From positions 1 to 64,000 of IMG/VR virus record IMGVR_UViG_3300043466_003163: a stretch of 64,000 bases of DNA. The stretch is one strand, 5' to 3'. A program made the translations under genes and the position numbers. Shown piece by piece: positions 1 to 23,607 of this stretch (position 1 is its first letter; the number at the start of each line of letters is the position of its first letter). A model generated the notes under the pieces. It saw nothing but the letters and a program-made list of their open reading frames with translations. It was not told where the DNA came from and did not search any database. This DNA comes from a virus.

Positions 1-995
1 GCATACCACAACCATCTTGGTTGACCCATATTTAAAACTAAAGTTATATTCCCTTGAGCACTTGACAATACTTTAGATGCAGTACCATTACCAATCATAT
101 TTTGTATATCTGAAACTGATGGGTTTTGTATATCAGTAACGCCATAATAGTAAGGATATATTCCTGTTATTACTTTTTGAGTAGTTAATGTATTTGATGC
201 ATCTTGTGGTTGATTTGATCTTACTGCATATCCTCGATCATCGGGAGTACCCTTATTATCAAGTAATTTATTACCTTGATCATAAACTGAAGTACCTATA
301 TAAGTATATACTTTAGATGTTTCCCCAGGTGCTGGTACATCAATAATAAAACTATCACTTGCAGTTACGGTAAAACCTTTATTTGGATTATTTGTGTTAA
401 GATATCCGAATTGCGGCCCTAAATCTGACTGTGTATCAGTTGAAATAGGACTCGTTTGCAAAGTATTACCATTTTTTGAAATGGCTAGGGCAGTGAAATC
501 TCCAGCATCATTTTTTACACCTTTTAATGATAAAGTTTGATTTATTGCTTCACCAATCTCTTTAATTCCTTGTTGACCTGTAAGAGATAATGTTGGTATA
601 GTATATGAAGGATATTGTTTTGGAAATAAAATGGTATCCAATACCTCAACCATGTCTAACTGTTTCCATTCTGATGCTGGTTTAGCTGGTGTAGTACCTA
701 TTATTTGTGACGATACATTATCTTCAATTTGTGTATTATATTTTGTTGAAACGGTATTTGAACTTATTACAATTATATCTTTACTATCTGCAGAAAGTGG
801 TGAAGATGATCCTGATAGTGATATATTTGTGGACAAAGTACCACCAGTTGGATTTATCAATGTTAAAGTATCCCCTGAAAAATTAATTCCTATTACTCCA
901 ATAGATTGTAGATAATATAAGTTATCATCCATTTCTTTTATAGTAAGTATTGAACCTTTACCATTTGGGCCGTAAAATCTAGTAATTAAAGGCAT
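1..995 (-). CDS. Virion structural protein, truncated by the window edge; absent from the ORF track
   Basis: Open frame from ATG at 995 (MPLITRFYGPNGKGSILTIKEMDDNLYYLQ...) running off position 1 (...QPRWLWYA); Ser/Thr/Gly-rich; ATATTTAT motif 14 nt upstream. Confidence 0.8.
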   Translation of the reverse strand, partial: MPLITRFYGPNGKGSILTIKEMDDNLYYLQSIGVIGINFSGDTLTLINPTGGTLSTNISLSGSSSPLSADSKDIIVISSNTVSTKYNTQIEDNVSSQIIGTTPAKPASEWKQLDMVEVLDTILFPKQYPSYTIPTLSLTGQQGIKEIGEAINQTLSLKGVKNDAGDFTALAISKNGNTLQTSPISTDTQSDLGPQFGYLNTNNPNKGFTVTASDSFIIDVPAPGETSKVYTYIGTSVYDQGNKLLDNKGTPDDRGYAVRSNQPQDASNTLTTQKVITGIYPYYYGVTDIQNPSVSDIQNMIGNGTASKVLSSAQGNITLVLNMGQPRWLWY

Positions 996-1031: not shown

Positions 1032-2735
1032 TTATTCAAAATAGTTAGAAACATATTCACATTCTACATAATTATTTTTACAATTAGGAAAAAAAGTACC
1101 TATTATATTATTTATTTCTTCTCTTATTGTTGTTATATCTAATGCACAACCATATAATCTAAATTTAGAAATATTCCCTTCAAACGTACCCGCAAAATTA
1201 TTTTGTATAACTAAATTATTATCTTTTTCATCTTTACCATTAATTGTATTAGTTTCAATTAACCCTTGTGATCCACCACCTAAACTATAATTATACGGAA
1301 CACCTTGTTGTTTTTCTCTATATTCATCTAATTCTCTAAATATAAACTCATCAAAATTATCTAAAGTCCATTTAAGATAACCATTTACATAAACTGTTAA
1401 AACACCTTTCCTTTTAGGTACATCTAATAGTTCACATTTACTATATTGTTCATAAGGTTTAAATCTTATTGCGACGTGAGACCATACATCATCAATTATA
1501 ATACCAGTATCACTATAACATTCATAGATACTCGTACCTGTTAAATACTGAATAGTGGTACTTGTGTAGGTAGTAGTTCCAGTACAACCACACCCACATT
1601 GTTCATGACAATCCACAACTATTGTTTCGGTAACTGCGGAACAAACTCCAGTCATTACGACAGTTCTAAAACCAATACTACCATCATCCTTTATTCTAAA
1701 CCCTAATGCGTTATCAATAATATCTGCATTTCTATCTTTTTCGTATGTAATTTCAGAGGTAATCCCACTAAAACAACAACAATCTCCTGGTTGATAAACT
1801 AAAAATGGGTTATCATTTAAAACTTTTTTTGTTTCTTTGGGTGGTGGTAAAGGATATCCTGATGAGGTAGTGTAACCTGTTTCTCCACTAAATAAATTCC
1901 AAAATTTATTTTCTGATCTAGTACCCATATAAAAGAAAAATCCTTTATTATTTGGGTAAATATTATTAAGTGTGTTACCACTACAATTACTTGAATTTTT
2001 ATTTAACCAAAATGTTGCGGTCCACCCATCTAAACAAGGTGTATAACTACTTCCTAATCGTTTAGGTAGTATTTCATAATTATATGGTACTGGTTTTAAA
2101 TCTAAATAACATTGGTATGATTTATTTGGGTCAGTATAACATAAATTATTAATACTATCACCACTACAAAATGGAGGACAATTAAACCATTCTATTGGCC
2201 AAGTAAACTTATTATCCGATATTTCCTCAAAATATGTTATGTCAGATAATTTAAAAAATCCTTGATAAAATCCACCACATAATTTTGTATATCTACCTTC
2301 ATTTTCTCCTAATGTAATTTCTAATGGATATTCATATGTACAACCAGTAACCCTAGTCATAGAAAATCTAGTATCTGCGGATGTTAGTGTTAATGTTGAA
2401 CCAGTAAATGCGGATAAGAAAGTTGATCCTGTAGTCCCACCCGTACAATCATATAAAATAAATCCATTATCTATACCCGTTAAACCAATATCGTTTAATG
2501 TAATACCACTACCATTTATTTTTGAATCTTTCCAAGTTGTTAGACTATATAGGGTATCCCCAGAAAATGAATTATCATTATTTACATCAATATATACTAA
2601 AATACATTCTTCTAATATATGATTATTATCTTGTTCATCTGTACAATCATAACAAAGAAATAAGTCCCAGTAATCACTGTTACTTAATTTCATTTTTAAA
2701 CAGTTATCGAAATTATGTTGGTAAATGTTACTCAT
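1032..2735 (-). CDS. Cys/Thr-rich virion protein with LamG/concanavalin-like elements
   Basis: WTATFW, WSHVAIRF, LTVYVNG and FEGNISKFRLYGCALD motifs typical of LamG folds; sits in the structural block. Confidence 0.6.
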   Translation of the reverse strand: MSNIYQHNFDNCLKMKLSNSDYWDLFLCYDCTDEQDNNHILEECILVYIDVNNDNSFSGDTLYSLTTWKDSKINGSGITLNDIGLTGIDNGFILYDCTGGTTGSTFLSAFTGSTLTLTSADTRFSMTRVTGCTYEYPLEITLGENEGRYTKLCGGFYQGFFKLSDITYFEEISDNKFTWPIEWFNCPPFCSGDSINNLCYTDPNKSYQCYLDLKPVPYNYEILPKRLGSSYTPCLDGWTATFWLNKNSSNCSGNTLNNIYPNNKGFFFYMGTRSENKFWNLFSGETGYTTSSGYPLPPPKETKKVLNDNPFLVYQPGDCCCFSGITSEITYEKDRNADIIDNALGFRIKDDGSIGFRTVVMTGVCSAVTETIVVDCHEQCGCGCTGTTTYTSTTIQYLTGTSIYECYSDTGIIIDDVWSHVAIRFKPYEQYSKCELLDVPKRKGVLTVYVNGYLKWTLDNFDEFIFRELDEYREKQQGVPYNYSLGGGSQGLIETNTINGKDEKDNNLVIQNNFAGTFEGNISKFRLYGCALDITTIREEINNIIGTFFPNCKNNYVECEYVSNYFE

Positions 2736-2747
2736 CTTTACATTTTA

Positions 2748-3467
2748 TTAAATTTGATACCTACCTCTATCTGCATTAAAATTCTTTAAAATTTCATCAG
2801 AAGTTAATTCTTTATGATAGACCCTAACAATCCCAATTTTACCTGCAAAACATTCACTAAGACAAAATGTACCTATTGAAAGTACACACCCTACAGCTAA
2901 TGTAGTATCGGGAGAAAATGGTTGAACATTTGATGCAACTAATACCCCATTAACATATGCTTTTAATCCTGATTGACTGAACACTGCTACCGCATGAACC
3001 CATTCATTTAAATTTATTATAGGGCTTGACGATATAGTATTTATTGTGGTCGTATTTTGTGAATATAACCATATTCTACCGTCACTAGTAAATCTATACC
3101 TATACCCATAATTAGAACCTTTAGCGATTATATTTGGATCTGTCAATAAGCTACTAGGTTTGACAAATGCCTCTAATGTGACCTCATCATCAAAATTATA
3201 TGAATCTACTGCAAAAGTATTTCCCGGAGGTCTTATAAATGTATGTACCAATAACCTATCATCTATACCATCAAATAAAATACAACCACCTCCATCAGTA
3301 CTATCATAATTATTATTTATATCAAAAGAACTAAATGTACCTGTTGCTACGTTAGTTGATAAATCATTCCATGTGGTACTACTCAATGAATAAGATTTCC
3401 TATTAACTGGATCCAAATATAAAACTAATCCATCTGTTACTATTTCTTTTCTACCTGTTCTTATCAT
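2748..3467 (-). CDS. LamG (concanavalin A-like lectin/glucanase) domain protein
   Basis: IVTDGLVLYLD, FDGIDD, WVHAVAV, YVNG, GKIGIVRVYHKELT; start moved to ATG 3467 (MIRTG) to avoid overlap with the upstream gene. Confidence 0.85.
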   Translation of the reverse strand: MIRTGRKEIVTDGLVLYLDPVNRKSYSLSSTTWNDLSTNVATGTFSSFDINNNYDSTDGGGCILFDGIDDRLLVHTFIRPPGNTFAVDSYNFDDEVTLEAFVKPSSLLTDPNIIAKGSNYGYRYRFTSDGRIWLYSQNTTTINTISSSPIINLNEWVHAVAVFSQSGLKAYVNGVLVASNVQPFSPDTTLAVGCVLSIGTFCLSECFAGKIGIVRVYHKELTSDEILKNFNADRGRYQI

Positions 3468-3477
3468 AATAATTATA

Positions 3478-3765
3478 TTATTGGGGGGTATCGTTATTAT
3501 TACCAACTAAATCTGTATAAACATCATTCCATACATTAGTTGACACTATTTGAATCATTTCTTCGTGTGTGTAAGGACCATATTTAGTCGTCAAAGAATT
3601 AAGTGAATTAGGTATGTTTAAACCATTCCATTTAACAATTGTTAATGTCCCATCTATAGATAGTCTAAGTTCCTCTTTATCACTTTGTATTATTTCATCA
3701 AAATTAACAGAATCAATATCAGAGTAATTTATTACCATATATCTTCTATTTTTATAAATTTCCAT
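3478..3765 (-). CDS. Hypothetical protein in the LamG/tail-fibre block
   Basis: 95-aa ORF, co-oriented and tightly packed. Confidence 0.7.
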   Translation of the reverse strand: MEIYKNRRYMVINYSDIDSVNFDEIIQSDKEELRLSIDGTLTIVKWNGLNIPNSLNSLTTKYGPYTHEEMIQIVSTNVWNDVYTDLVGNNNDTPQ

Positions 3766-3777
3766 TTTTAAAAAAAT

Positions 3778-6258
3778 TTAAATACTTCTTATTATTGTTT
3801 TAACTACAAATCCTGTAGTATTTGCTGATGATTGAAAAATGCAACTATTATTATCAGCAGAAAAACTAAATGATATTCCTGAAGTAGTACCAATACTACT
3901 GGTAGAAGTTTCAATGTAATTAACAGTATTACCACTAAAAACTGCCATTATTTGTCCTGTTCTAAGACCAGGAGTTATATTATTTATAACTGTATATTCA
4001 TACCACGCACCAGTATAAGCACTCATTGGTAAAAAATGTATATTAGTTAATCCTGTGTAGGCGTATGATTTAACCGATGAATATAATCCAGGTGCTGAAA
4101 AATTACCCATTAAAACAGTATCATTATCAAAAACTTCTAATACAGGAATTGATGATATATTATTTACCGAAAATAGAGAACCAACCAAACTGTCTTTAAT
4201 TGTAAATAATTGACCACTACTACCTGAAATACCAACTATTGGTTCGGTTGTACTACTTCCTGAACCAATTATATTTAAAACATTAGTAGTATTACCTGAT
4301 AATAATGTCTCACCTTTTACATCTAATGTTTTTGTTGGGTTTGATCCATTAACCCCAATCCTATTATTTGTTATATCTATTGTTATTCCGCTTGTTGAAC
4401 CGAAATAAACATTCCCTTCATCTAAAGGATTTATATTAAGTGGAGAACAAGAATGAATGTTTGAAACATATATATTATCAATACAATCTCCTGAACTACC
4501 TATGGTAGTTGCTGATATTGTAGTTGCGGATAATCCATTTGTAAAATTAGTTGTACCAGTAACAGTACCACCCGTAAATGCCCCACCACCTGAAGATACT
4601 TGCCAACTGGCATTACCACTAGCATCAGATGTAAGAACATAACCAGGTGTTGCACCTGATGTCATTTGAAAATTAATAGTTTTTGTTTTACCACTAACAT
4701 CTAATTTTTCTGATGGTGTTTCAGTTCCTATACCAACATTACCAACATTTGTAATTATCATTTTGGTGTCTGTAGTGGTTACAAAAGAAGTACCATCATT
4801 TCTAGTACCAAAATGTATATTAGGGGTAGTATTTGAATTAACTCCGACTACTAAATTATTGTTTGTATCAGGTGTTATACCAAAAACGGCAGTACTAACT
4901 CCACCATCTTGTGATAATAAAAGTTGAACATTGTGTGTTTCGTCTAAATTATCCGTATCGGCTTCTAATTTAACTCTTACCGCACCTGTGCTTTTTAAAT
5001 GTAACAATTCAGTTGGGGACGAGTTATTAATACCAACAAAACCTCTTGTGGGACCAGAACCTTGTATATGTATATCGGGAATATTGATGACATCGGCATT
5101 TTGACCAGCATAAAATCTTATATAGTCTTCAGTTCCTGTACCACTGGCGCTTATTACATTTAATCCATTATTACTAATTGATGAATATAAAAATGCGTCA
5201 TTAATTTTTCCATATTCGTCATTTCCAACGTTTGTTGTACCCCTAATCCCCATTCTCGCAACTGATGTTCCACTAATTCTGGCTTCAACAAAAGTTAAAC
5301 TTGTGTTACCACCACTAACCATTATATTTGTATTAATCGGATCATAAGAAAATCTAGAAGTACCATTAACCACATCCAATATGGTTGCTGGTGATGATGT
5401 TCCTATACCTAACCTATTATTAGAAACGTCAACAGTAACACCACTTGTTGACCCAAAATACACATTACCTTCATCTAAGGGATTAATGTTTAACGGAGAG
5501 CAAGAATGTATGTTAGAGATATAAAGGTCACTAATACAATTTCCTGACCCACCACTAAAAGAAGGTGATTCTTGCCAACTACCATTACCAAATTCATCTG
5601 AAGTTAATACATAATTAGTTGTTGCAGAACTAGCACCATTAGTAATTGTTATTTTATTAGTGATAAGTCTTCCATCTACAGTAATATTTTCTTTTGATGA
5701 AATATAATCTAATGGACCTTTATAATCTAATGTACCTGCAGAAAAATTTTGTTGTGATGCGATTGTGAAACCAGAAAATAAAGTTGATCCTGTATTAAGT
5801 GATGATAAATTAACAAAAGAATAACTGATACTATATCCAGTATATTGTGTACCTATTACATATTCTCCAGTATACCCAGTTTGAGTTAAAGTCCAAAAAG
5901 GACCTACAGTTTGGGTATCCGCACTTAATGGTGTTATGGGTAATGTTAATCCAGAAACATAAATACCGAATAGAGGGTTTGTCCATGTATTTGCAGAAAA
6001 ACTATCAAATATAGGGTTATAATTAGGTGATGATGGATTTGAAACATCGAATACTGTTGTACCAGTATCACCACTAAAAACTGCAGTCTGATTAGAAACT
6101 ACTCCTAATGAAACTGTAGTTGCGGTATCAACACCTGTAGGGTATCCACTAAAAGGAATACCTGCCTGTATTTTACCATCAAATGTCGCAGTTTCACCTG
6201 TAATAATTTTGGATTGTCTCGAAAGATCTAATAAAGTAGTAAATTTATTTATTGGCAT
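3778..6258 (-). CDS. Tail fibre-like protein
   Basis: GNVGIGTETPSEKLDV and RLGIGTSSP fibre repeats, YVLTSDxxGNxSWQ twice, internal duplicated module, Ser/Thr/Gly-rich. Confidence 0.8.
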   Translation of the reverse strand: MPINKFTTLLDLSRQSKIITGETATFDGKIQAGIPFSGYPTGVDTATTVSLGVVSNQTAVFSGDTGTTVFDVSNPSSPNYNPIFDSFSANTWTNPLFGIYVSGLTLPITPLSADTQTVGPFWTLTQTGYTGEYVIGTQYTGYSISYSFVNLSSLNTGSTLFSGFTIASQQNFSAGTLDYKGPLDYISSKENITVDGRLITNKITITNGASSATTNYVLTSDEFGNGSWQESPSFSGGSGNCISDLYISNIHSCSPLNINPLDEGNVYFGSTSGVTVDVSNNRLGIGTSSPATILDVVNGTSRFSYDPINTNIMVSGGNTSLTFVEARISGTSVARMGIRGTTNVGNDEYGKINDAFLYSSISNNGLNVISASGTGTEDYIRFYAGQNADVINIPDIHIQGSGPTRGFVGINNSSPTELLHLKSTGAVRVKLEADTDNLDETHNVQLLLSQDGGVSTAVFGITPDTNNNLVVGVNSNTTPNIHFGTRNDGTSFVTTTDTKMIITNVGNVGIGTETPSEKLDVSGKTKTINFQMTSGATPGYVLTSDASGNASWQVSSGGGAFTGGTVTGTTNFTNGLSATTISATTIGSSGDCIDNIYVSNIHSCSPLNINPLDEGNVYFGSTSGITIDITNNRIGVNGSNPTKTLDVKGETLLSGNTTNVLNIIGSGSSTTEPIVGISGSSGQLFTIKDSLVGSLFSVNNISSIPVLEVFDNDTVLMGNFSAPGLYSSVKSYAYTGLTNIHFLPMSAYTGAWYEYTVINNITPGLRTGQIMAVFSGNTVNYIETSTSSIGTTSGISFSFSADNNSCIFQSSANTTGFVVKTIIRSI

Positions 6259-11503: not shown

Positions 11504-12760
11504 ATGAGTAAGATTAAAGTATTAGTTGTTCCAAGTGATAGAACAGGTGTATCATATTATAGATCAACAATTCCACACATTAAATTAGAAGAGTATTTCC
11601 CTAATGAATTTCATGTGGACATCGATTATGAACCACAATTAAACAGTGATGAATACCTAAAAAAATATGATTTAATACATTATCATAGAACATTAGGTGA
11701 TTATGATGATTTACCTAATCTATTGGAAAGATGTGATAAATTAGGTGTCTCAACTATTATGGATATTGACGATCATTGGTCACCAGGACCTGATCATCCA
11801 GCTTGGCAAATTATTAAACAACATAATTTAGATAAAAAAATATTTAATAATTTAAAAGTTTCTAAAAATATCACTACGACAACATCTGTATTTGCAAATG
11901 AAATTAGTAAAATTAATAAAAACGTGTTTGTAATACCAAATGCTATTGATACCGAAGAAAAGCAATACCAGAGTAATCCTGAAAAAAGTGATAGAATTAG
12001 AATAGGATGGTTAGGTGGTTCTTCACATATGAAAGATTTAGAAATTCTAAGGGGATTAATGAATAAATTAAAAACTGATGGGTTAATCGATAGAGTACAA
12101 TTTGTTCTTTGTGGATTTGATTTAAGAGGTACTATAACATTAATCGATCAAAAAACTGGTGAACAAAAACAAAGACCAATTAAACCTAAAGAATCTATAT
12201 GGTATCAGTATGAAAAAATATTTACTGATGATTATAAATTAGTGAGTGAAGAATATAAGGATTTTTTATTATCTTTTGAGAATAAAGAATATGAAAACTT
12301 TAAAAATGAACCATATAGAAGAGTTTGGACTAAACCTATAACTTCATACGCAACAAATTACAATTTATTTGATATATCATTAGCTCCATTAAAAGAAAGT
12401 ACATTTAATAAGGTTAAATCCCAATTAAAAGTGATAGAAGCTGGATTTCATAAAAAGGTTATAATTGCACAAGATTTTGGACCATACCAAATAGATATTG
12501 TAGAATCATATGAAAAAGGTGGAACAATAAATGAAAATGGTAATGGATTTTTAGTTTCAAGTGCAAAAAATCATAAATTGTGGTATTCACATATTAAAAG
12601 ATTAATAGAGAATCCTGAATTAATTACAAAATTAGGTGAAAATTTATATAATTCTGTAAATGGTAAATACGATATGAAAACAGTATGTGCACAAAGAAGA
12701 GACTTATATAAAAAATTAGTATCTGAAAAAAAAAGTGTGGAATTTGACTTAGTAAAATAA
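11504..12760 (+). CDS. Glycosyltransferase, GT-B/GT4-like
   Basis: MDIDDHW, VIPNAID, RIGWLGGSSH, DISLAPL..FNKVKSQLKVIEAG. Confidence 0.85.
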   Translation: MSKIKVLVVPSDRTGVSYYRSTIPHIKLEEYFPNEFHVDIDYEPQLNSDEYLKKYDLIHYHRTLGDYDDLPNLLERCDKLGVSTIMDIDDHWSPGPDHPAWQIIKQHNLDKKIFNNLKVSKNITTTTSVFANEISKINKNVFVIPNAIDTEEKQYQSNPEKSDRIRIGWLGGSSHMKDLEILRGLMNKLKTDGLIDRVQFVLCGFDLRGTITLIDQKTGEQKQRPIKPKESIWYQYEKIFTDDYKLVSEEYKDFLLSFENKEYENFKNEPYRRVWTKPITSYATNYNLFDISLAPLKESTFNKVKSQLKVIEAGFHKKVIIAQDFGPYQIDIVESYEKGGTINENGNGFLVSSAKNHKLWYSHIKRLIENPELITKLGENLYNSVNGKYDMKTVCAQRRDLYKKLVSEKKSVEFDLVK

Positions 12761-13956: not shown

Positions 13957-14160
13957 ATGACTAAAGAAAGAACACTAAATGAATTAAGACAAGAAAAAGA
14001 ATATGGGTACAAGGTACCTGTAACTAAAGTTAATTATTATTATCAAAATAATATTAATTTGGATTCTCAGTATATTATTGAATTAATAGAACTTTACCCT
14101 AATGATCAAGATTTAGGTAAACAAATAAGAAAATATTTTTTAGAGTTAAAAAATGATTAG
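13957..14160 (+). CDS. Small hypothetical protein
   Basis: 67-aa ORF overlapping the next start; YPNDQDLG motif. Confidence 0.65.
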   Translation: MTKERTLNELRQEKEYGYKVPVTKVNYYYQNNINLDSQYIIELIELYPNDQDLGKQIRKYFLELKND

Positions 14161-15556
14161 TGTAGTTTTTTCTACAAGAGTAGATAATCCGAACCATAAA
14201 GAACATATAGAAAAAACCTCTGGTATCCATAAAGGGCTGGAGGTTATTCAGTTTATAAATAATGGAGAATTTTCTTTAACGGAACTATATAATAAAGCCT
14301 TAAAAGAAACTACAAACGATATTGTAGTTTTTTGTCATGATGACGTTATTATTGAAACTAATAATTGGGGTAACAAAATTATAAACCATTTTAAAAGGAA
14401 TAGTGAATATGGTATTTTAGGAAAAGCGGGTACTAAATATATGCCTAAATCTGGTATGTGGTGGGATGTCGGCATGACTGAAGTTGTAGGACAAGTATAC
14501 CATCAACACGGAGATCAAAAATGGTTATCACAATATAGTGAATCGTTTGGTAATAAAATAGATGATACAATAATAGTAGATGGTTTATTTTTTGCAATCA
14601 ATAAAAAAAATATTAAAACTGAATTTGATGAAAGTATAAAAGGTTTTCATTTTTATGAAGTTGATTTTTGTTTTAATAATTTTTTAAAAGGTGTTAAAGT
14701 AGGTATAATTAGTGATATTTCTATTACACATTTATCTATTGGAGTAACTAATCAACAGTGGGATGAAAATAGAAAACAATTTGTAGAGAAATATAAAGAA
14801 AATTTACCTCAAATTATTCCGTATAGATATAATATTAATAAAATTAAAAAGGATGAACCACTAGTATCTATTTTGATGCCGATTTATAACTATGGTAATA
14901 GAATTAATCAAACATTGAAATCCATATTTAATCAAGATTATACTAATTATGAGATTATATTGGTTGACGATGGTTCTACAGATGAATATGTAAAACTAAA
15001 ACTTAAACAATTAGAGTCTGTAGAAAGAATTAAAGTTATATATAAAGATAACGGTGGACCTTCTTCCGCAAGAAATGAGGCATTTAAACACTCAAAAGGG
15101 GAATATATTTTACCATTAGATTCTGATGATATGATTAAACCAGAATATTTAAAAACTTGTGTTAATATATTAAGAAACAATGAAAATATAAGTCCAGTAT
15201 ATTGTGATACACAACATATAGGTCAAATGAATGGGGTAGAAAAAAGACCTGAATGGACAAAAGAAAGATTAGTGCAGGGACCATTTATTGTAAATTGTTC
15301 TATGTTTCATAGAAAATCATTTGAGGTAGTTAATGGTTATGATGAATCATTATTTGGTTGGGAAGACTATGATATGTGGATAAGAATGATGAAATCGGGA
15401 TACGTTGGTAAAAGGATACCTAAACCTTTATTTATTTATTTCCATCATGAAAAAGATGGAACTGTATCTACAGAAGCAAATAAAAATCATATGGAATTAT
15501 ATCAAAAGATAATACATAAAAATTTTGATGTAGTAGATAATAAAATAGTTGTATGA
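14153..15556 (+). CDS. Two-domain GT2-family glycosyltransferase
   Basis: N-terminal FCHDDV / GFHFYEVD domain; C-terminal VSILMPIYN, VDDGSTD, GPSSARN, LDSDD, WEDYDMW. Confidence 0.9.
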   Translation: MISVVFSTRVDNPNHKEHIEKTSGIHKGLEVIQFINNGEFSLTELYNKALKETTNDIVVFCHDDVIIETNNWGNKIINHFKRNSEYGILGKAGTKYMPKSGMWWDVGMTEVVGQVYHQHGDQKWLSQYSESFGNKIDDTIIVDGLFFAINKKNIKTEFDESIKGFHFYEVDFCFNNFLKGVKVGIISDISITHLSIGVTNQQWDENRKQFVEKYKENLPQIIPYRYNINKIKKDEPLVSILMPIYNYGNRINQTLKSIFNQDYTNYEIILVDDGSTDEYVKLKLKQLESVERIKVIYKDNGGPSSARNEAFKHSKGEYILPLDSDDMIKPEYLKTCVNILRNNENISPVYCDTQHIGQMNGVEKRPEWTKERLVQGPFIVNCSMFHRKSFEVVNGYDESLFGWEDYDMWIRMMKSGYVGKRIPKPLFIYFHHEKDGTVSTEANKNHMELYQKIIHKNFDVVDNKIVV

Positions 15557-16173
15557 AATTAAAAAAATATTTTGATAAAATTTATTGTATTAATTTAGAT
15601 CGGAGAAAAGATAGGTGGGAAGAATCCGACAAAGAATTTCAAAAATGGGGGATATCTGAGGAGATTGAGAGGTATTCTGCGATCGATGGTTCACAGTTAG
15701 AAAATAATTATAGTATTAATAATGGTGAATTAGGTATTTTAATGACTCATTTTAATTTAATAACAGAGGCGAAAAAAAATAATTTAAAAAATATTTTAAT
15801 CATTGAGGACGATATAGAATTTACTGACGAAATAAAAAATATCGACAAATATATGTCTTTATTACCTATTAACTGGGATATGGTATATTTTGGGGGTAAT
15901 CATAATAAACATATGGGTAAAAAAATAAATTTAATTAATGAAAATGTAATAAAATTAGAGGAGACTTATGGTATTCATTGTGTTGCAATTAATGAATCTA
16001 TTTATGATTTAATTTTAAATTTATTAAAATATAAACAAAAACCTGTTGATGTTTATTATTCAGATATACAAAAAACTTATGATTGTTATGGATTTAATCC
16101 TAGTATTGCATTGCAAAGGATAAGTTATAGTGACATTCAAAATAAAGTAATGGATTATAAATGGTTATTTTAA
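15553..16173 (+). CDS. GT25-family glycosyltransferase
   Basis: IYCINLDRRKDRW, SAIDG, GELG..TH, LIIEDD. Confidence 0.85.
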   Translation: MKLKKYFDKIYCINLDRRKDRWEESDKEFQKWGISEEIERYSAIDGSQLENNYSINNGELGILMTHFNLITEAKKNNLKNILIIEDDIEFTDEIKNIDKYMSLLPINWDMVYFGGNHNKHMGKKINLINENVIKLEETYGIHCVAINESIYDLILNLLKYKQKPVDVYYSDIQKTYDCYGFNPSIALQRISYSDIQNKVMDYKWLF

Positions 16174-16177
16174 AAAT

Positions 16178-16993
16178 ATGTTTATCACTTCACATCTAAT
16201 GGGGGGATTAGGAAACCAAATGTTCCAAATTGCCAAAGCCAAAACAGAAGGATTAATACATAATCTCCCTGTTTATTTCCGTTTAAATTCTTTTATACCA
16301 ATGGAAGGTAGGCAACCCATTAATTATAGAGATAATATTTTTAGAAATATTATATTTAAATCTGATTTAAACCCATTAAAAAGAATTAATGAAATTCAAT
16401 GGAATTATAATGCACATGATTACGTCATAAATGAACCAACAGAATTTTATGGATATTATCAGAGTAGTAAAAATTTTAAAAATTATAAAGAAACTATAAG
16501 AGATTTATTTTTACCTTCTACCGAATTTATTGAAAAAATAAAAAATAAATACCCTAAAATATTTGAAAGTGATTCAGTATCAATTCATGTAAGAAGAGGG
16601 GATTATTTAGGTGTATCAAGTATTTTACCTGTTATAAACAAATCTTATATAGACGAATCTTTAAGTACTATTGGTAAATATAGTCATATTTTTATCTTTT
16701 CTAATGATAAAAAATGGTGTGAAGAAAATTTAAAATATGAAAATTCTACAATAGTCTATGATTTAGAGGACTATGAGGAATTATGGGTAATTAGTTTATG
16801 TAATCACAATATAATGTCTAATTCTTCATTTTCTTGGTGGGGATCTTACCTTAATAAAAATATAAATAAAAAAATTTTAGCCCCCTCAGTATGGTTTGGA
16901 CCTAATGGAGAAAAAGAATACGAATCAATATATGAGAATGAATGGGAAATAATTAATACCAAATATAAAAATGGTGAAATAGTTTACATTTGA
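16178..16993 (+). CDS. Alpha-1,2-fucosyltransferase-like, GT11
   Basis: GGLGNQMFQ, GYYQS, SIHVRRGDY, NSSFSWWG. Confidence 0.9.
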   Translation: MFITSHLMGGLGNQMFQIAKAKTEGLIHNLPVYFRLNSFIPMEGRQPINYRDNIFRNIIFKSDLNPLKRINEIQWNYNAHDYVINEPTEFYGYYQSSKNFKNYKETIRDLFLPSTEFIEKIKNKYPKIFESDSVSIHVRRGDYLGVSSILPVINKSYIDESLSTIGKYSHIFIFSNDKKWCEENLKYENSTIVYDLEDYEELWVISLCNHNIMSNSSFSWWGSYLNKNINKKILAPSVWFGPNGEKEYESIYENEWEIINTKYKNGEIVYI

Positions 16994-17034
16994 AGATATG
17001 TGAATTATAATAATTTAATAAAAAAATAAAAAAT

Positions 17035-17652
17035 ATGTTATTGAATTTAGATAATTTAAAAGAAAAATATAACTTAGATATTAAAGGAGTATTACACATT
17101 GGTGCCCATGTAGGACAAGAATTTAAAACTTATCAGAGATTAGAAATAAAAAATGTAATGTTTTTTGAACCTATACCAACGACATTTCAAAAGTTAAAAG
17201 AAAACGTAGGAGATAATGCAATTTTAATTAATACGGCATTAGGTAATATGGTTGGTGAAGTTGAGATGTTTACAGAAACAATAAATCAAGGACAATCAAG
17301 CTCAGTATTAGAACCTGAACACCACCTAATCCAACACCCGAATATTCAATTCAACGGTAGACAAAAAGTTACGATTACTAAACTAGATAATTTCATAGAG
17401 AATAAAGATAAATTTAATTTCATTAATATTGATGTGCAAGGATATGAATTAGAAGTTTTTAAAGGTGGATCAGAATTTCTTAAAACAATTGACTATGTTA
17501 TGACAGAAGTTAATAGGGCTGAATTGTATAAAGGATGTGCCAAAATTGAGGACTTAGATAAGTTTTTAGGTGATTATGGATTCGAAAGAGTTGAAACTAC
17601 ATGGGATGGTGGAACATGGGGTGATGCATTTTATATAAAAAATAAAAATTAA
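17035..17652 (+). CDS. FkbM-family methyltransferase
   Basis: HIGAHVG, FEP, NIDVQGYELEVFKG, TEV. Confidence 0.9.
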   Translation: MLLNLDNLKEKYNLDIKGVLHIGAHVGQEFKTYQRLEIKNVMFFEPIPTTFQKLKENVGDNAILINTALGNMVGEVEMFTETINQGQSSSVLEPEHHLIQHPNIQFNGRQKVTITKLDNFIENKDKFNFINIDVQGYELEVFKGGSEFLKTIDYVMTEVNRAELYKGCAKIEDLDKFLGDYGFERVETTWDGGTWGDAFYIKNKN

Positions 17653-17665
17653 AAAATAAAGAATT

Positions 17666-18199
17666 ATGCCCTCATTAAATGAACAACAATTAAAAAATAT
17701 TTTAAAAAAAAATAATTTAGAGTTAAAAGACTTTAATGTTTTTTTTGAAACTGGTAGTCATATAGGTGAAACTATAAACAATATGTTAGATCATTTTGAA
17801 AAATTAATCACTATAGAAGTTTCTGAAAAATATTATAACATAGTAAAAAATAAATTTAAAGATATCCAAAAGGTAAAATGCGTCTATGGTGATAGCGCAT
17901 TAATTATGGAAGATGTTATACCAACTGAAAGAGAAGGAGTGATATTTTGGTTAGACGGCCATTATTCTAGCGACGATACTGGTAAAGGTATTAATGATTG
18001 CCCACTAATTGAGGAATTAAATGTCATTAATTCTAAATTCAAAAATTCTGTAATTATAATTGACGATTATAGAATGTTTGGAACAAAGGGCAACGAGGAT
18101 TGGACTAATATAACACAAGATAATGTCATTAAATGTTTTGACAATAAAAAAATTAAAGATGTTTTTTCAATAGATGATAGACTAATAATTTTTATTTAA
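17666..18199 (+). CDS. SAM-dependent methyltransferase-like protein
   Basis: FFETGSHIGET, TIE, GDS, FWLDGH, IIIDD. Confidence 0.75.
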   Translation: MPSLNEQQLKNILKKNNLELKDFNVFFETGSHIGETINNMLDHFEKLITIEVSEKYYNIVKNKFKDIQKVKCVYGDSALIMEDVIPTEREGVIFWLDGHYSSDDTGKGINDCPLIEELNVINSKFKNSVIIIDDYRMFGTKGNEDWTNITQDNVIKCFDNKKIKDVFSIDDRLIIFI

Positions 18200-18203
18200 A
18201 AAA

Positions 18204-19004
18204 ATGATAAAAGAAAAATTATATATACATGATACAATATTTAATCACGCAAAATCTAGCAGTTGGTACAACGATCCAGAACTATTTGATTGGGTTAGAA
18301 AATATGATGAAGATCATTTAGTATTTACAGATAAAACACTAAGTCAAGTTGATAATTTTCATAATAAAAAAAAATATGCATGGTTGCTTGAATCTCCTGA
18401 AATAACACCATTTGCATATAATTTTATTAAAGAAAATTATAATAAATTTGATTTAATTTTTACTTTTAGTAAAGAATTACTGGAATTATCTGATAAATTT
18501 ATTTTAATACCATATGGTGGATGCTGGATAGAAGAAAAAGATAGAATAATTCATGAAAAATCTAAAGAAGTTTCTATAATATTATCAGCAAAACGATCAA
18601 CTATTGGTCACATGATTAGGCATGAAATTCACCAAAAATATAATTATATTGATTCTTTTGGATATCATAATCCGATAGAAAATAAAATAACCGCATTAAA
18701 AGATTATAGATTTTCATTAATAATTGAAAATTGTCAAAAAGATTATTATTTTAGTGAAAAATTAATAGATTGTTTTATAACAGGTACCATTCCTATTTAT
18801 TGGGGATGTCCCTCTATAGGAGAATTTTTTGACATAAATGGTATGTTAATATTCAACAAAATAAGTGATTTAGATCTGATAATGGGTAAATTAAATGAGG
18901 ATTTATATCTTTCTAAAATTAAATCAATTAAAAGTAATTTTGAGGTGTCAAAAAAATATTTAGTGGCAGATAATTTAATTTATGAAAAGTTAAAAAATTT
19001 ATGA
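18204..19004 (+). CDS. Alpha-1,3/4-fucosyltransferase-like, GT10
   Basis: YRFSLIIEN..DYYFSEKLIDCF..GTIPIYWG is the GT10 motif. Confidence 0.85.
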   Translation: MIKEKLYIHDTIFNHAKSSSWYNDPELFDWVRKYDEDHLVFTDKTLSQVDNFHNKKKYAWLLESPEITPFAYNFIKENYNKFDLIFTFSKELLELSDKFILIPYGGCWIEEKDRIIHEKSKEVSIILSAKRSTIGHMIRHEIHQKYNYIDSFGYHNPIENKITALKDYRFSLIIENCQKDYYFSEKLIDCFITGTIPIYWGCPSIGEFFDINGMLIFNKISDLDLIMGKLNEDLYLSKIKSIKSNFEVSKKYLVADNLIYEKLKNL

Positions 19005-19711
19005 AAAAATATTTAGTAAATTATTCAGATAAAACACATAAAAATTCGCAAATAGAAAACACCCGTTCCGCGTTAACAATTGGTGGTTTTGATGAAGTTT
19101 TTTCATTTAATTATGAAGATTTAGATGAAGAATTTATTTCCCAAAATAAAAAAATCCTATCAGAATCTAGAGGTGCTGGTTATTGGATGTGGAAACCATA
19201 TGTTATTAAAAAAGTATTAGATAAAATTGGTGAAAATGATATTTTAATGTATTCTGATTCTGGTATTTCATTCATAAGAAATGTTGATGAAATACTAGAT
19301 ATTATGGATAAAACGAATGAAAAATTATTACTATTCGAATTGGAGGATGTCCACCCTAACAAACGTTGGACTAAACGAGATTGTTTTGTCTTATTGGGAT
19401 TAGATTCTGAACCATATTTATCACAAAATCAGTTATTGGCTAGTTACATTTTAATGAGGAAAAATAATTTTGTTATAAATTTTATTAATGAATGGTTAGA
19501 ATATGCAAAAGACTATAGAATTATAACAGATTCACCAAATGAATGTGGTTTACCTAACTATCCTGAATTTGTTGACCATAGGCACGATCAAAGTATTTTA
19601 AGTTTATTAGGTAGGAAATACAATATAAAAAATATTCCCGATGTTAGTCAATTTGGTAATGGTAGAATGATTACATCTCAGGTATTTAATCACCATAGAA
19701 ATAGAAATTAA
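19001..19711 (+). CDS. Putative GT-A glycosyltransferase
   Basis: GYWMWKPY, YSDSG, HRHDQSILSLL; inside the glycan island. Confidence 0.6.
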   Translation: MKKYLVNYSDKTHKNSQIENTRSALTIGGFDEVFSFNYEDLDEEFISQNKKILSESRGAGYWMWKPYVIKKVLDKIGENDILMYSDSGISFIRNVDEILDIMDKTNEKLLLFELEDVHPNKRWTKRDCFVLLGLDSEPYLSQNQLLASYILMRKNNFVINFINEWLEYAKDYRIITDSPNECGLPNYPEFVDHRHDQSILSLLGRKYNIKNIPDVSQFGNGRMITSQVFNHHRNRN

Positions 19712-19712
19712 A

Positions 19713-20435
19713 ATGAAAATTAAATATGCTATTATGGGTTCTAACATGAACCCACTTTATTATGATTTTTGGCCAATAATATCTAAAACATGGAAAGAGG
19801 TTTTTGATATTACCCCTATTTTAGGTTTAATATGTGACGAAGATTCTGATTTTATAAAAGATAAGTATGGGTTAGTTAAAAAATTCAAATCTGTTGATGG
19901 TATTGATGATGGATTGCAATCCCAGATTGTTAGATTTTATTTACCTACTATATTAGATGATATCTCAGTAACCTCAGATATTGATATGGTTCCGTTATCA
20001 AAAAGATACTTTATTGATTTTATTAATTCTTTTGATGAAAATAAGTTTTATGTTATGACATCTGATAACCCAGAATGTCTTAAAAATCATGAGTATCAAA
20101 TGTGTTACAACATTGCAAAACCACAACTATTTAAAGATGTTTTAAAAATTGATGATTCATGGATAGATTTTGTTACTAAGTTAAAAAATTTAGGACTCGG
20201 GTGGACAACTGATCAGCGTTATTTATATGATATGGTAAATACATATACTAATAAAGAAAATATTGTTTTATTAAACAGAGGATTTAGTGGTTTTGCACAT
20301 AATAGAATTGATAGGGCGATATGGCAATATGATGTTAATGGGGTTAAAAATGGAAATTATATCGATTCACATTTACTCAGACCTTATCAACAGTATAAGA
20401 CAGAAATCGATAATTTAATTAATTTGTTATATTAA
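19713..20435 (+). CDS. Putative GT-A glycosyltransferase
   Basis: TSDIDM (DxD), WTTDQ, DSH; inside the glycan island. Confidence 0.55.
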   Translation: MKIKYAIMGSNMNPLYYDFWPIISKTWKEVFDITPILGLICDEDSDFIKDKYGLVKKFKSVDGIDDGLQSQIVRFYLPTILDDISVTSDIDMVPLSKRYFIDFINSFDENKFYVMTSDNPECLKNHEYQMCYNIAKPQLFKDVLKIDDSWIDFVTKLKNLGLGWTTDQRYLYDMVNTYTNKENIVLLNRGFSGFAHNRIDRAIWQYDVNGVKNGNYIDSHLLRPYQQYKTEIDNLINLLY

Positions 20436-21199
20436 TGGAATTAATAACTGGGAATAAATTTAAAAGAATTTGTCATCATTCGTATGATGAATTTGGCTTT
20501 ACGTTACAATCGAACCCAATCGATGACGAACCATTAAAAGTGTTTGTTAAAATTGACTACGTTCATAACTTTTTTATTACCCCACCGTCAAGACCTTTTA
20601 TTTTAATAACTCACAATGGAGATTTACCAGTGGATAGTAATTATTTACAGTACATGGACAACCCAAATTTGTTAAAATGGTATGGTCAAAATATAATGAC
20701 AGTTCACCCAAAATTACAATCAATTCCAATAGGTATTGCAAATGAAAAATGGGATCACGGTAACGAATCAGTTTTTTTTGAGGTAATGAATCAAAATATT
20801 GAAAAGGAACGTTTGTTATACATTAATTTTGACGTTAATACAAATAGAAGTGAAAGAAATTATTGTTTGTCTGAATTAAACAAAAAAGGTTTAGAAATGA
20901 ATGTTAAACTACCGTTCAAACAATATTTAGAAGAAGTATCAAAAAGTTATTTTGTCGTCTCACCAAACGGTAACGGTGTTGATTGCCATAAAACGTGGGA
21001 GTCTTTGTATTTAAAAACGATACCAATAGTCACAAAATCTATTAATATTGACTATTATAAAAAATTACCTATAATTGTAATAGATAATTGGTTAAACTTT
21101 GATTTTAACATGTTTAATATTGATTTATATGAAAAAACATGGAAAAATTTTAATATAAATAATTTATGTTTTAAAAAACATGAAAAGTTAATAAAATAG
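20435..21199 (+). CDS. Exostosin/GT47-like glycosyltransferase
   Basis: SYFVVSPNGNGVDCHKTWESLYLKTIPIV. Confidence 0.7.
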   Translation: MELITGNKFKRICHHSYDEFGFTLQSNPIDDEPLKVFVKIDYVHNFFITPPSRPFILITHNGDLPVDSNYLQYMDNPNLLKWYGQNIMTVHPKLQSIPIGIANEKWDHGNESVFFEVMNQNIEKERLLYINFDVNTNRSERNYCLSELNKKGLEMNVKLPFKQYLEEVSKSYFVVSPNGNGVDCHKTWESLYLKTIPIVTKSINIDYYKKLPIIVIDNWLNFDFNMFNIDLYEKTWKNFNINNLCFKKHEKLIK

Positions 21200-21205
21200 T
21201 TTATA

Positions 21206-21850
21206 ATGATTAATTTGTATTATAATTATTATCGTTCAGATAACGAAAAAAGAATGAAAGAATTAGATTTTTGTTTGCTAAAAACAATAGAAAATAAATT
21301 TATAGACAATGTTTTTGTAATCATTTCTAAATCTGATTTACTTAACTTTAAATTAGATAATAAAAAAATAACTATTGTTGAAATAGAAAACAGACCAACG
21401 TATAACTTTGTAATCGAATTAATCAATAAAACAACAAATAATGAAGATATAAATGTTATCATAAATTCAGATTGCTTTATTGATGAATCAACAACAAATC
21501 TAATACAAAAAATAAACATTGATGAAATGTGGTGTATGAACAAATATGACATTATTGACGATTACTTTAATTTAAAATTTCATGGAGATTCATCCTCACA
21601 AGACTGTTGGATTTTTAAAGGATTTTCAAAAAAAATAGAAAACATAAACTTTAATTTTGGTACACCTGGTTGTGATAATAGGTTTGCACATGAATCTAAA
21701 TCTGCTGGTTATACTTTAAAAAACCCATCAATAGATATAAAAATATTACATTATCATTTAAGTCAAATAAGAACTTGTCCACATATTGATTGGGATAAGC
21801 ACAGAATAAATGGTGATTATGAATTTGTGACACCAGAAAAAATACTTTGA
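21206..21850 (+). CDS. Putative glycosyltransferase-like protein
   Basis: INSDCF, SQDCWIF, FGTPGCDNR, HYH; island context. Confidence 0.5.
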   Translation: MINLYYNYYRSDNEKRMKELDFCLLKTIENKFIDNVFVIISKSDLLNFKLDNKKITIVEIENRPTYNFVIELINKTTNNEDINVIINSDCFIDESTTNLIQKINIDEMWCMNKYDIIDDYFNLKFHGDSSSQDCWIFKGFSKKIENINFNFGTPGCDNRFAHESKSAGYTLKNPSIDIKILHYHLSQIRTCPHIDWDKHRINGDYEFVTPEKIL

Positions 21851-21857
21851 AAATAAC

Positions 21858-23019: not shown

Positions 23020-23036
23020 TAATAAAAATAATAAAA

Positions 23037-23606: not shown

Positions 23607-23607
23607 T

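What the first reader, a model, noticed from the sequence alone, without database searches (positions are those of the whole stretch)
1032..6258. [S/T][G/A]xT motif saturates outer virion proteins: candidate sequon of a phage-encoded O-glycosylation system
Seen: by hand count the tetrapeptide [S/T]-[G/A]-x-T occurs about 26 times in the 826-aa fibre (TGET, SGDT, SANT, SADT, TGYT, TGST, SATT, TGGT, SGNT, SAYT...) and about 14 times in the 567-aa protein. My rough expectation from composition is about 4-5 and about 1. It also occurs in the edge ORF (SGDT, TGGT), in 35819-37228 (TGGT, SAFT), in 53701-54024 and in the capsid insertion (SATTFTGLT). I found none in ClpC, portal or terminase. The hits are scattered over unrelated domains with a variable third residue, so they do not come from tandem duplication. 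Established: the Bacteroidota host O-glycosylation motif is D-(S/T)-(A/I/L/V/M/T), which is different. Inference: this is an acceptor sequon recognised by a glycosyltransferase of the neighbouring island, giving a glycan-coated virion.
Basis: partly seen in the sequence, partly recalled or inferred. Interest (0 to 1): 0.9.

Follow-up and report, generated by a model that had tools for sequence, protein, structure and literature searches.

The report
Thr-ending motif on phage tail proteins
A four-residue word, Ser/Thr-Gly/Ala-x-Thr, is 6 to 14 times too frequent in the tail fibre and a lectin-like tail protein of this uncultured jumbo Bacteroidota phage and its relatives; it may be a sugar-attachment tag or a purely structural signature, and no chemistry decides between them.

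Summary
The count is exact: 26 motifs against 4.4 expected in the 826-aa fibre, and 14 against 1.0 in the 567-aa protein. The excess is order-specific, Thr-specific and survives local shuffles.

The excess marks a whole uncultured phage lineage:
- All 240 database homologues and 78 viral contigs show it.
- In two relatives read whole it also marks the variable middle region of the tail sheath and other structural-cluster proteins.
- All remaining ORFs sit at expectation.
- T4, K1F, S-SKS1 and ESCO13 lack it.

Motif Thr is conserved more than other Thr, yet sites turn over between orthologues while their number is kept. In AlphaFold models the motif lies in loops just before beta-strands.

The fucose/methyl part of the sugar island is absent from both relatives, which are equally enriched. 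So only a conserved core of glycosyltransferases can be linked to the motif.

Best reading, at about 0.4: an acceptor or recognition tag for soluble phage glycosyltransferases. A purely structural motif is almost as likely. This scan found the same motif earlier in other genomes.

The parts
3778..6258 (-). 826-aa tail fibre with 26 [ST][GA]xT motifs. The N-terminal domain (residues 1-230) holds 12. Residues 231-520 form a beta-helix with an excess of none. Residues 521-660 and the C-terminal tip are enriched again.
   Evidence: Counts and shuffles. All 120 listed homologues are enriched, z 4-13. Residues 281-423 match the Bdellovibrio Bd2133 fibre (Foldseek E 6e-6; VIA Z 7.5, rmsd 5.8, 121 aligned). 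The N-terminal domain has no clear fold match.
1032..2735 (-). 567-aa Cys-rich lectin-like tail protein (gene aa) with 14 motifs, all in residues 1-145 and 251-400.
   Evidence: AF2 model pLDDT 68, pTM 0.72. ConA-like jelly roll resembling CBM40 and the tetanus toxin Hc lectin domain and S-PM2 virion structural proteins. Relatives on 443 IMG/VR contigs, none in isolated phages.
2748..3506 (-). 252-aa Laminin_G_3 protein between the two enriched genes. It has no motif.
   Evidence: Pfam PF13385, E 1e-21. 0 motifs against 0.46 expected.
3..995 (-). Edge ORF (331 aa, runs off the window) with two motifs near its N-terminus, not above chance.
   Evidence: 2 vs 0.98, p 0.26. Sequence context.
11504..12760 (+). 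Conserved core glycosyltransferase (phrog_7162). It lies next to the fibre module throughout the lineage.
   Evidence: PHROG E 1e-39. Found within 10 kb of the 567-aa protein's homologue in 39 of 78 loci. 82% identity in G001 and 65% in G007. A 34% identity homologue sits in megaphage LR756501.
14153..15556 (+). Conserved two-domain GT2 glycosyltransferase.
   Evidence: Pfam PF13712 plus PF00535 plus PF02709. Best solved relative is E. coli K4 chondroitin synthase 2z86/2z87, E 4e-34, two stretches. Present in 23 of 78 loci and in G001 and G007.
15553..26934 (+). Variable sugar cassette: GT25, GT11, FkbM methyltransferase, GT10, RXYLT1-like, nucleotide-diphospho-sugar transferase, three further methyltransferases, GDP-mannose 4,6-dehydratase and a GDP-L-fucose synthase-like gene. 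Specific to this phage.
   Evidence: Pfam and NCBIfam. No homologues in G001 or G007, except one weak methyltransferase match in G001. The same slot holds other sugar genes there. No transmembrane segment.
28892..30971 (+). Conserved 371-aa protein of unknown family and a conserved GT2 (30195-30971), part of the lineage core.
   Evidence: Pfam PF00535 E 4e-14 for 30195-30971. 89% and 81% identity in G001, 53% and 48% in G007.

Best explanation
Shown. [ST]-[GA]-x-T is a selection-maintained short motif in the tail fibre (3778-6258) and the lectin-like tail protein (1032-2735). It marks a whole lineage of uncultured, mostly jumbo phages. Bacteroidota hosts are likely, judged from the nearest DNA matches and from the description of a similar lineage in PMC12619734. 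In two relatives read whole, the motif also marks the variable middle region of the tail sheath and other proteins in the same structural gene clusters. Capsid, portal and non-structural proteins are not enriched.

Inferred. The motif is the recognition or acceptor element, probably with Thr as acceptor, for soluble phage-encoded glycosyltransferases that act in the cytoplasm on tail proteins before or during assembly. The conserved core enzymes (11504-12760, 14153-15556, 30195-30971) would start and extend the glycan. A strain-variable cassette would add the outer sugars: in this phage GDP-fucose synthesis, GT10/GT11/GT25-type transferases and O-methyltransferases. The result would be a sugar-decorated tail rather than a sugar-coated virion. 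Recognition would need the local loop-then-strand structure, not the bare tetrapeptide.
For: 1. Enrichment z 10-14, order- and Thr-specific, at protein level.
2. Lineage-wide. All 240 listed homologues are enriched. In the 78 viral-contig loci, 195 of 513 ORFs of 300 aa or more have z of at least 4 and 270 have z under 2.
3. Whole relatives. In G001, 8 of 237 ORFs are enriched and the rest hold 46 vs 47.2. In G007, 16 of 375 are enriched and the rest hold 76 vs 70.8. The enriched set is the fibre module, the sheath cluster and one further cluster of large proteins of no known family.
4. In both sheaths all 10 motifs lie in residues 121-586, the variable middle region (47% identity). None lies in the conserved N- and C-terminal parts.
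5. The enriched proteins of G001 share almost no BLAST similarity with each other.
6. Motif Thr is conserved 0.72-0.88 against 0.35-0.57 for other Thr. Position x is less conserved than average at deep divergence.
7. Turnover at constant density. Sheath orthologues have 10 and 10 motifs, 3 at the same column. The 567-aa protein's homologues have 15 and 15, 6 shared. Unshared sites exceed the shuffle expectation in most comparisons.
8. In the models, motif positions 1-3 are about 65% coil and a strand follows from Thr onward.
9. T4, K1F, S-SKS1 and ESCO13 show no enrichment. A 3487-aa S/T/G-rich ORF of LR756501 is also not enriched (114 vs 126), so composition alone does not produce the excess.
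10. Core GT genes are syntenic with the fibre module across the lineage. Megaphage LR756501 has both a 34% identity homologue of 11504 and a fibre with 60 vs 10.4 motifs.
11. The slot between the GT2 and phoH carries different sugar genes in each genome. Island ORFs between 9.7 and 32.1 kb have no transmembrane segment.
Against: - No modification is shown.
- No relative lacking the core GTs was found, so co-occurrence may simply be shared ancestry.
- The best-conserved GT2 resembles polysaccharide polymerases (chondroitin and heparosan synthases), not a known protein O-glycosyltransferase.
- Soluble GTs also act on lipid-linked or DNA acceptors.
- Other phage proteins do not avoid the motif (15 vs 15.1).
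- The flanks are hydrophobic or Cys and conserved site by site. Position x is conserved within sites among close homologues.
- In relatives the motif sits in regular ~100-aa tandem repeats at spacings of 10, 14 and 17 residues, as in a fibrous beta-structure.
- Several 'lost' sites keep [ST][GA] and only swap Thr for Val or Leu, a normal beta-strand substitution.
- S-SKS1 has a sugar island with a fucosyltransferase but no motif excess.
Confidence: 0.4

Rival explanations
1. Purely structural signature. The motif caps the start of beta-strands: a Ser/Thr-small turn followed by beta-branched Thr. It would belong to a lineage-specific pool of beta-rich modules that recombine among fibre, sheath-insert and other tail proteins. 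This resembles the GGA[ILV]/FxxN tetrapeptides of chlamydial Pmp beta-helices (recalled from general knowledge, not tested here). Nothing is attached to the motif. The GT genes would serve something else, such as host envelope glycans or DNA.
For: - The motif lies at loop-to-strand junctions.
- Hydrophobic, Phe or Cys residues sit before the motif and hydrophobic residues after it.
- 61% of instances in the 567-aa protein's family sit at conserved columns.
- Relative L039 has a 3318-aa fibre with 161 motifs in regular repeats ending in a Peptidase_S74 chaperone domain.
- Thr but not Ser at the last position fits beta-strand propensity.
- Thr/Val/Leu swaps occur at otherwise kept [ST][GA] sites.
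- The enriched ORFs of the 78 loci form one single-linkage cluster, suggesting shared modules.
- The fucose cassette is dispensable for the enrichment.
Against: - The motif is absent from the fibres and sheaths of T4, K1F, S-SKS1 and ESCO13.
- It is absent from the fibre's own beta-helix part and from residues 401-567 of the 567-aa protein.
- It is enriched in proteins with no detectable similarity to each other.
- Sites turn over while density is kept, and unshared sites are above chance.
Confidence: 0.38
2. The motif is a tag or functional short motif of another kind. It could be the target of a different modification (phosphorylation, methylation, acylation), a recognition element for an assembly chaperone, or a weak repeated contact site for host surface polysaccharide.
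For: The same lineage specificity, confinement to tail-associated proteins and turnover as above. None of these names the chemistry. Five methyltransferase genes lie in the island.
Against: The methyltransferases sit in the cassette that G001 and G007 lack. In the window no kinase or acyltransferase was seen to be conserved with the fibre module. Core GTs are the only conserved modifying enzymes seen next to it.
Confidence: 0.1
3. Composition or alignment artefact: an S/T/G-rich composition produces the excess by chance.
For: The enriched proteins are richer in S, T and G than the genome average.
Against: - Shuffles that keep whole-protein or 20-residue local composition never reach the observed counts.
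- Permuted orders of the motif are not enriched.
- An even richer 3487-aa ORF in LR756501 shows no excess.
Confidence: 0.01

Closest known systems
Bacterial autotransporter heptosyltransferases (Aah/TibC, TIGR04414 'strand-loop-strand O-heptosyltransferase') acting on AIDA-I, TibA and Ag43
   Same: A soluble cytoplasmic enzyme decorates many Ser/Thr sites in a repetitive beta-rich adhesin. It recognises a short structural element rather than a strict sequon. Here the motif also sits in a loop next to a strand.
   Different: No TIGR04414 homologue was found in this contig or in five relatives, two of them complete genomes. No heptose pathway was seen in the window. The acceptor proteins are phage tail proteins, not autotransporters.
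Mycobacteriophage virion glycosylation (Che8 type; Freeman et al. 2023, known here only through its citation in PMC12619734)
   Same: Phage-encoded glycosyltransferases modify the phage's own virion proteins.
   Different: As summarised in PMC12619734, those glycans sit at the C-termini of the capsid and tail-tube subunits. Here the candidate sites are scattered loops of fibre, sheath-insert and lectin-like proteins, and the capsid is not enriched.
Chlorovirus (PBCV-1) virus-encoded cytoplasmic glycosylation of the capsid protein (general knowledge, not tested here)
   Same: The virus carries soluble glycosyltransferases, methyltransferases and its own GDP-mannose dehydratase and GDP-fucose synthase route. 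No lipid-carrier or export genes are evident.
   Different: That system is N-linked, on the major capsid protein, in a eukaryotic virus. Here Thr would be O-linked on tail proteins. The fucose route is not conserved in the relatives.
Bacteroidota general protein O-glycosylation, sequon D-(S/T)-(A/I/L/V/M/T)
   Same: Same probable host phylum, and Ser/Thr as acceptor.
   Different: That sequon is not enriched in either protein (3 vs 4.1; 2 vs 2.0). By general knowledge it acts on exported proteins, whereas phage tails assemble in the cytoplasm.
'Moraphages', jumbo aquatic phages with predicted Bacteroidota hosts (PMC12619734)
   Same: A large uncultured aquatic phage lineage with Flavobacteriia-type hosts predicted. 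Four core orthogroups are putative glycosyltransferases of unknown role. That matches the conserved GT core seen here.
   Different: Membership of this contig in that lineage was not tested. The paper does not mention the motif in the passages read.

Membership tests
Bacterial autotransporter heptosyltransferase system (BAHT; Aah/TibC) | A TIGR04414-type heptosyltransferase gene is present | tested here: not met
   No match at E of 0.01 or better in the own contig (27% complete) or in G001, G002, G003, G006 and G007. The last two are complete DTR genomes.
Bacterial autotransporter heptosyltransferase system (BAHT; Aah/TibC) | Acceptor Ser/Thr lies in a strand-loop-strand element of a repetitive beta protein | tested here: inconclusive
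   In the AF2 models motif positions 1-3 are mostly coil and a strand follows.
Bacteroidota general O-glycosylation | Enrichment or use of D-(S/T)-(A/I/L/V/M/T) | tested here: not met
   3 vs 4.1 in the fibre and 2 vs 2.0 in the 567-aa protein.
Phage virion glycosylation of the mycobacteriophage type | Phage-encoded GT genes linked to structural genes | tested here: met
   The phrog_7162 GT and the two-domain GT2 lie within 10 kb of the fibre module in 39 and 23 of 78 loci, and in G001 and G007.
Phage virion glycosylation of the mycobacteriophage type | Glycan chemically detected on virion proteins | not testable with these tools
   Needs mass spectrometry or glycan staining of virions or of co-expressed proteins.
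Virus-encoded cytoplasmic glycosylation of the chlorovirus type | Soluble virus-encoded GTs plus virus-encoded nucleotide-sugar synthesis, with no lipid-carrier or export genes | tested here: met
   GMD scores 414 bits against a cut-off of 415. An Fcl-like gene, about 10 Pfam/PHROG-supported GT genes and five methyltransferase genes are present. No 19-residue hydrophobic segment occurs in ORFs between 9.7 and 32.1 kb. The contig is only 27% of the genome, so export genes elsewhere are not excluded.
Virus-encoded cytoplasmic glycosylation of the chlorovirus type | The major capsid protein is the acceptor | tested here: not met
   The capsid has 3 vs 1.3 motifs, p 0.15. In G001 and G007 no ORF outside the enriched fibre, sheath and third clusters is above chance.
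Trimeric beta-helix tail fibre (Bdellovibrio Bd2133/Bd3182-like fibre module; Peptidase_S74 fibres in relatives) | Fold match of the fibre body to a solved fibre beta-helix | tested here: met
   8ond: Foldseek E 6e-6; VIA Z 7.5, rmsd 5.8, 121 aligned over residues 281-423. Relatives end in PF13884.
Concanavalin A-like lectin / LamG jelly roll (the 567-aa protein) | Jelly-roll fold match | tested here: met
   Foldseek E 7e-6 to 1e-4 against the tetanus toxin Hc fragment and CBM40 sialic-acid-binding modules. BFVD matches to LamG-like virion proteins of S-PM2.

The most novel reading that the evidence does not exclude
A lineage of uncultured jumbo Bacteroidota phages writes a Thr-ending tetrapeptide code, [ST]-[GA]-x-T, into the exposed loops of its tail proteins: fibres, sheath inserts and lectin-like proteins. 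A conserved set of soluble phage glycosyltransferases O-glycosylates these sites in the cytoplasm. A strain-variable sugar cassette (here fucose plus O-methylation) diversifies the outer glycan, much as O-antigen loci do. This would be a sequon-directed, phage-autonomous tail glycosylation system.
Probability: 0.35. Interest if true: 0.85.

Novelty: new variant of a known kind. Interest (0 to 1): 0.62.

Why it matters
Protein glycosylation of phage particles is documented for very few phages, and none has a defined acceptor motif.

If this motif is an acceptor code, it would allow:
- prediction of glycosylated sites from sequence alone in several hundred uncultured genomes;
- an explanation for the conserved 'orphan' glycosyltransferases of jumbo Bacteroidota phages (PMC12619734);
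- a view of the variable sugar cassette as a phage counterpart of serotype diversity, with consequences for adsorption, aggregation, grazing or protease resistance.

If it is purely structural, it is still a useful lineage marker and a clear case of a tetrapeptide signature of an undescribed beta-module class. Both readings can be tested by co-expressing the fibre N-terminal domain with three or four genes.

Tried and rejected
- **Chance or composition:** rejected by whole-protein and block shuffles and by permuted motifs.
- **DNA-level repeat or codon effect:** rejected. Both Ser codon families are used and codon use is ordinary.
- **Generic property of phage fibres or S74 fibres:** rejected. 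T4 gp34/36/37/12, K1F endosialidase, S-SKS1 and ESCO13 are not enriched. Flavobacterium phage immuto is only mildly enriched (10 vs 3.9).
- **Host Bacteroidota sequon or N-x-S/T:** not enriched.
- **Link to the fucose/methyl cassette:** rejected, because it is absent from the equally enriched G001 and G007.
- **BAHT enzyme:** none found.
- **DNA hypermodification as the use of the GTs:** the 408-aa thymidylate-synthase homologue scores as true thymidylate synthase (TIGR03284, 303 bits vs a cut-off of 108). No hydroxymethylase was therefore seen in this contig. This does not exclude one in the missing 73% of the genome.
- **Relatives without any GT:** none found. GT2 is present in 4 of 5 whole records, and the fifth is a 42% fragment.
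- **Isolated phages with a homologue of the 567-aa protein:** none among the isolated-phage records searched.
- **Literature search for SGxT/TGxT motifs:** nothing relevant. Freeman et al. 2023 is not held in the library.
- **Solvent exposure:** model coordinates are not provided, so it could not be computed. Only DSSP strings were used.
- **Single-linkage clustering of enriched ORFs:** uninformative, because the motif-rich segments themselves create the links.

Full report
**Observation**

I translated every ORF of the window and of the 88.6-kb contig it belongs to. I counted [ST][GA]xT against 1000 shuffles of each protein.
- The 826-aa ORF 3778-6258(-) has 26 motifs against 4.40 expected.
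- The 567-aa ORF 1032-2735(-) has 14 against 0.98.
No shuffle reached either count.

The excess is robust:
- It survives shuffling within 20-residue blocks (z about 10 and 9).
- It is specific to this order of residue classes. The best permuted order gives 9 and 7.
- It is specific to Thr at the last position. After [ST][GA], Thr occupies the fourth motif position in 49% and 67% of cases against a 10-13% background, and neighbouring offsets sit at background.
- [ST][GA]xS is not enriched.
- Codon use inside the motifs is ordinary, so the signal is at protein level.

- The edge ORF has 2 vs 1.0, ORF 35819-37228 has 2 vs 0.6, ORF 53701-54024 has 1 vs 0.75, and the capsid has 3 vs 1.3.
- The remaining 102 ORFs of the contig hold 15 against 15.1 expected.

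Inside the two proteins the excess is regional. The fibre's residues 1-230, 521-660 and 661-826 are enriched, and its beta-helix part 231-520 is not. The 567-aa protein's residues 1-145 and 251-400 are enriched, and its C-terminal part is not.

**What the proteins and the phage are**

- The capsid is Gp23-like and the portal and terminase are T4-like.
- The only DNA matches are to Flavobacterium phage immuto.
- CheckV puts the contig at 27% of a genome.
- The fibre's residues 281-423 match the beta-helix of Bdellovibrio fibre Bd2133. Relatives end in the Peptidase_S74 chaperone domain.
- The fibre's motif-rich N-terminal domain is the part conserved across homologues. It has no clear fold match.
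- The 567-aa protein folds as a concanavalin-A-like jelly roll resembling CBM40 modules and cyanophage virion proteins.
- Its family occurs on 443 IMG/VR contigs, up to 360 kb long, and in no isolated phage.
- A 2025 paper describes a comparable lineage of jumbo aquatic phages with predicted Bacteroidota hosts. Four of its core orthogroups are glycosyltransferases (GTs) of unknown role (PMC12619734).

**The sugar island**

Pfam, PHROG and NCBIfam searches confirm the following:
- a phrog_7162 GT (11504-12760);
- a two-domain GT2 (14153-15556);
- GT25, GT11, GT10, RXYLT1-like and nucleotide-diphospho-sugar transferase genes;
- five methyltransferase genes (FkbM, Methyltransf_24, Methyltransf_11, TylF types);
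- GDP-mannose dehydratase and a GDP-fucose-synthase-like gene;
- a further GT2 (30195-30971).

No ORF between 9.7 and 32.1 kb has a hydrophobic 19-residue segment. The thymidylate-synthase homologue scores as true thymidylate synthase. Nothing in this contig therefore points to a hydroxymethyl-pyrimidine route for DNA glycosylation.

**The motif is a lineage trait**

- All 120 listed homologues of the fibre and all 120 of the 567-aa protein are enriched.
- In the 78 viral-contig loci, the 567-aa protein's homologue and its large neighbours are enriched in nearly every locus. One 3318-aa fibre has 161 motifs against 40 expected.
- Among ORFs of 300 aa or more in those loci the distribution is two-peaked: 195 have z of at least 4 and 270 have z under 2.

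I then read two relatives whole.
- G001 (254 kb; 77% identity in the 567-aa protein) has 8 enriched ORFs of 237. The rest hold 46 against 47.2.
- G007 (353 kb, complete; 33% identity) has 16 of 375. The rest hold 76 against 70.8.
- The enriched set is the fibre module, a cluster that includes the tail sheath, and one further cluster of large proteins of no known family.
- In both sheaths all ten motifs lie in residues 121-586, the variable middle region. None lies in the conserved N- and C-terminal parts. By analogy with T4 gp18 (general knowledge), that middle region is the outward-facing part.
- The enriched proteins of G001 share almost no BLAST similarity with one another.

Controls show that composition and phage type do not explain the excess:
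- T4 fibres, baseplate and sheath, K1F endosialidase, cyanophage S-SKS1 and coliphage ESCO13 show nothing. S-SKS1 has its own sugar island with a fucosyltransferase, and ESCO13 has a 21% identity homologue of the 11504 GT.
- Flavobacterium phage immuto is only mildly enriched.
- Megaphage LR756501 has a 34% identity homologue of the 11504 GT. One of its fibres has 60 motifs against 10.4, while an even more S/T/G-rich 3487-aa ORF has 114 against 126.

**Selection and turnover**

- Motif Thr is kept in 0.72-0.88 of homologues, against 0.35-0.57 for other Thr.
- The first position exchanges Ser and Thr freely, and the second exchanges Gly and Ala.
- Position x is less conserved than average at deep divergence.
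- Sites nevertheless turn over. Sheath orthologues at 57% identity have ten motifs each but share three columns. The 567-aa protein's homologues in G001 and G007 have 15 each and share six.
- The unshared sites exceed the shuffle expectation in most comparisons.
- Keeping the number while moving the positions is how modification sites behave.
- However, several 'lost' sites keep [ST][GA] and only swap Thr for Val or Leu. That is also an ordinary beta-strand substitution.

**Structure**

In two AlphaFold models (pLDDT 68) the first three motif positions are about 65% coil, and a strand tends to start at the Thr. The flanks favour Phe, Cys or aliphatic residues before the motif and aliphatic residues after it. 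In relative L039 the motif recurs every 10, 14 or 17 residues inside ~100-aa tandem repeats. This fits a strand-start cap in a fibrous beta-structure. It equally fits an exposed loop that an enzyme could reach.

**Link to the glycosyltransferases**

- The 11504 GT and the two-domain GT2 lie within 10 kb of the 567-aa protein's homologue in 39 and 23 of 78 loci. They are kept in G001 and G007, together with 28892-30007 and the GT2 at 30195-30971.
- The stretch 15553-26934 has no homologue in either relative, apart from one weak methyltransferase match in G001. That stretch holds the fucose route, GT10/GT11/GT25 and the methyltransferases.
- The same slot between the GT2 and phoH holds two small GT2 genes in G001. 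In G007 it holds a GT2, a GFO/IDH/MocA sugar oxidoreductase and a hexapeptide acyltransferase.
Only the conserved core can be tied to the motif.
- No relative without that core was found, so this remaining link is untested.
- The two-domain GT2 is most like chondroitin and heparosan synthases, not a known protein O-glycosyltransferase.
- No BAHT-type enzyme is present in this contig or in five relatives.

**Verdict**

| Reading | Probability |
|---|---|
| Acceptor or recognition tag for the conserved soluble phage GTs, with a variable cassette supplying outer sugars | about 0.4 |
| Purely structural signature of a lineage-specific beta-module pool | about 0.38 |
| Another kind of tag | about 0.1 |
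| Chance or composition | excluded |

Earlier notes of this scan describe the same motif in other genomes (e1-5633868, e1-6025513, e1-5403072, e1-5920607). They were leads only. I reproduced here the enrichment in the sheath. I did not find the BAHT relative reported in one of them.

Noticed in passing
window 15553-26934; G001 234056-237330 (L095:14056-17330); G007 12016-20461 (mostly in L099): The slot between the conserved GT2 and phoH is a variable sugar-gene cassette. This phage carries the fucose route plus GT10/GT11/GT25 and methyltransferases. G001 carries two small GT2 genes. G007 carries a GT2, a GFO/IDH/MocA oxidoreductase and a hexapeptide acyltransferase.
   Followed up: partly
window 1032-2735 (-): The lectin-like protein is Cys-rich. 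Four motif sites are directly preceded by a Cys that is conserved in the family (before TGGT, SGNT, SAVT and TGTT), and there is a CCC run before SGIT. This suggests a metal site or disulfide scaffold.
   Followed up: no
window 3778-6258 (-), residues about 205-290 and 530-640: The fibre holds an internal duplication of an ~85-aa module (YVLTSD...W, then IHSCSPLNINPLDEGNVYFGSTSG). It accounts for two pairs of motifs.
   Followed up: no
window 56188-57414 (-): The thymidylate synthase is 408 aa. Its match to the family is split in two by an insert after about residue 250. It scores as a true thymidylate synthase.
   Followed up: partly
window 35819-37228 (+); G007 2532-3938: This 469-aa protein is not enriched here (2 vs 0.6), but its 52% identity orthologue in G007 is (5 vs 0.7). 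It shows gain of motifs in a protein of unknown role next to the capsid module.
   Followed up: partly
L039:2-9958 (+): A 3318-aa fibre of a relative is built of ~100-aa tandem repeats carrying five to six motifs each, plus a block of 14-residue SHAEG-type repeats. It ends in a Peptidase_S74 chaperone domain.
   Followed up: partly
L117:5058-15521 (+) (LR756501): A 3487-aa, extremely S/T/G-rich ORF of the 735-kb megaphage has no motif excess (114 vs 126). It lies 4 kb from a fibre with 60 vs 10.4.
   Followed up: no
window 6319-6915 (+): A HAD-type (Hydrolase_3) phosphatase-like gene lies directly beside the fibre gene. It is conserved in 25 of 78 loci and could be a sugar-phosphate phosphatase.
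   Followed up: no
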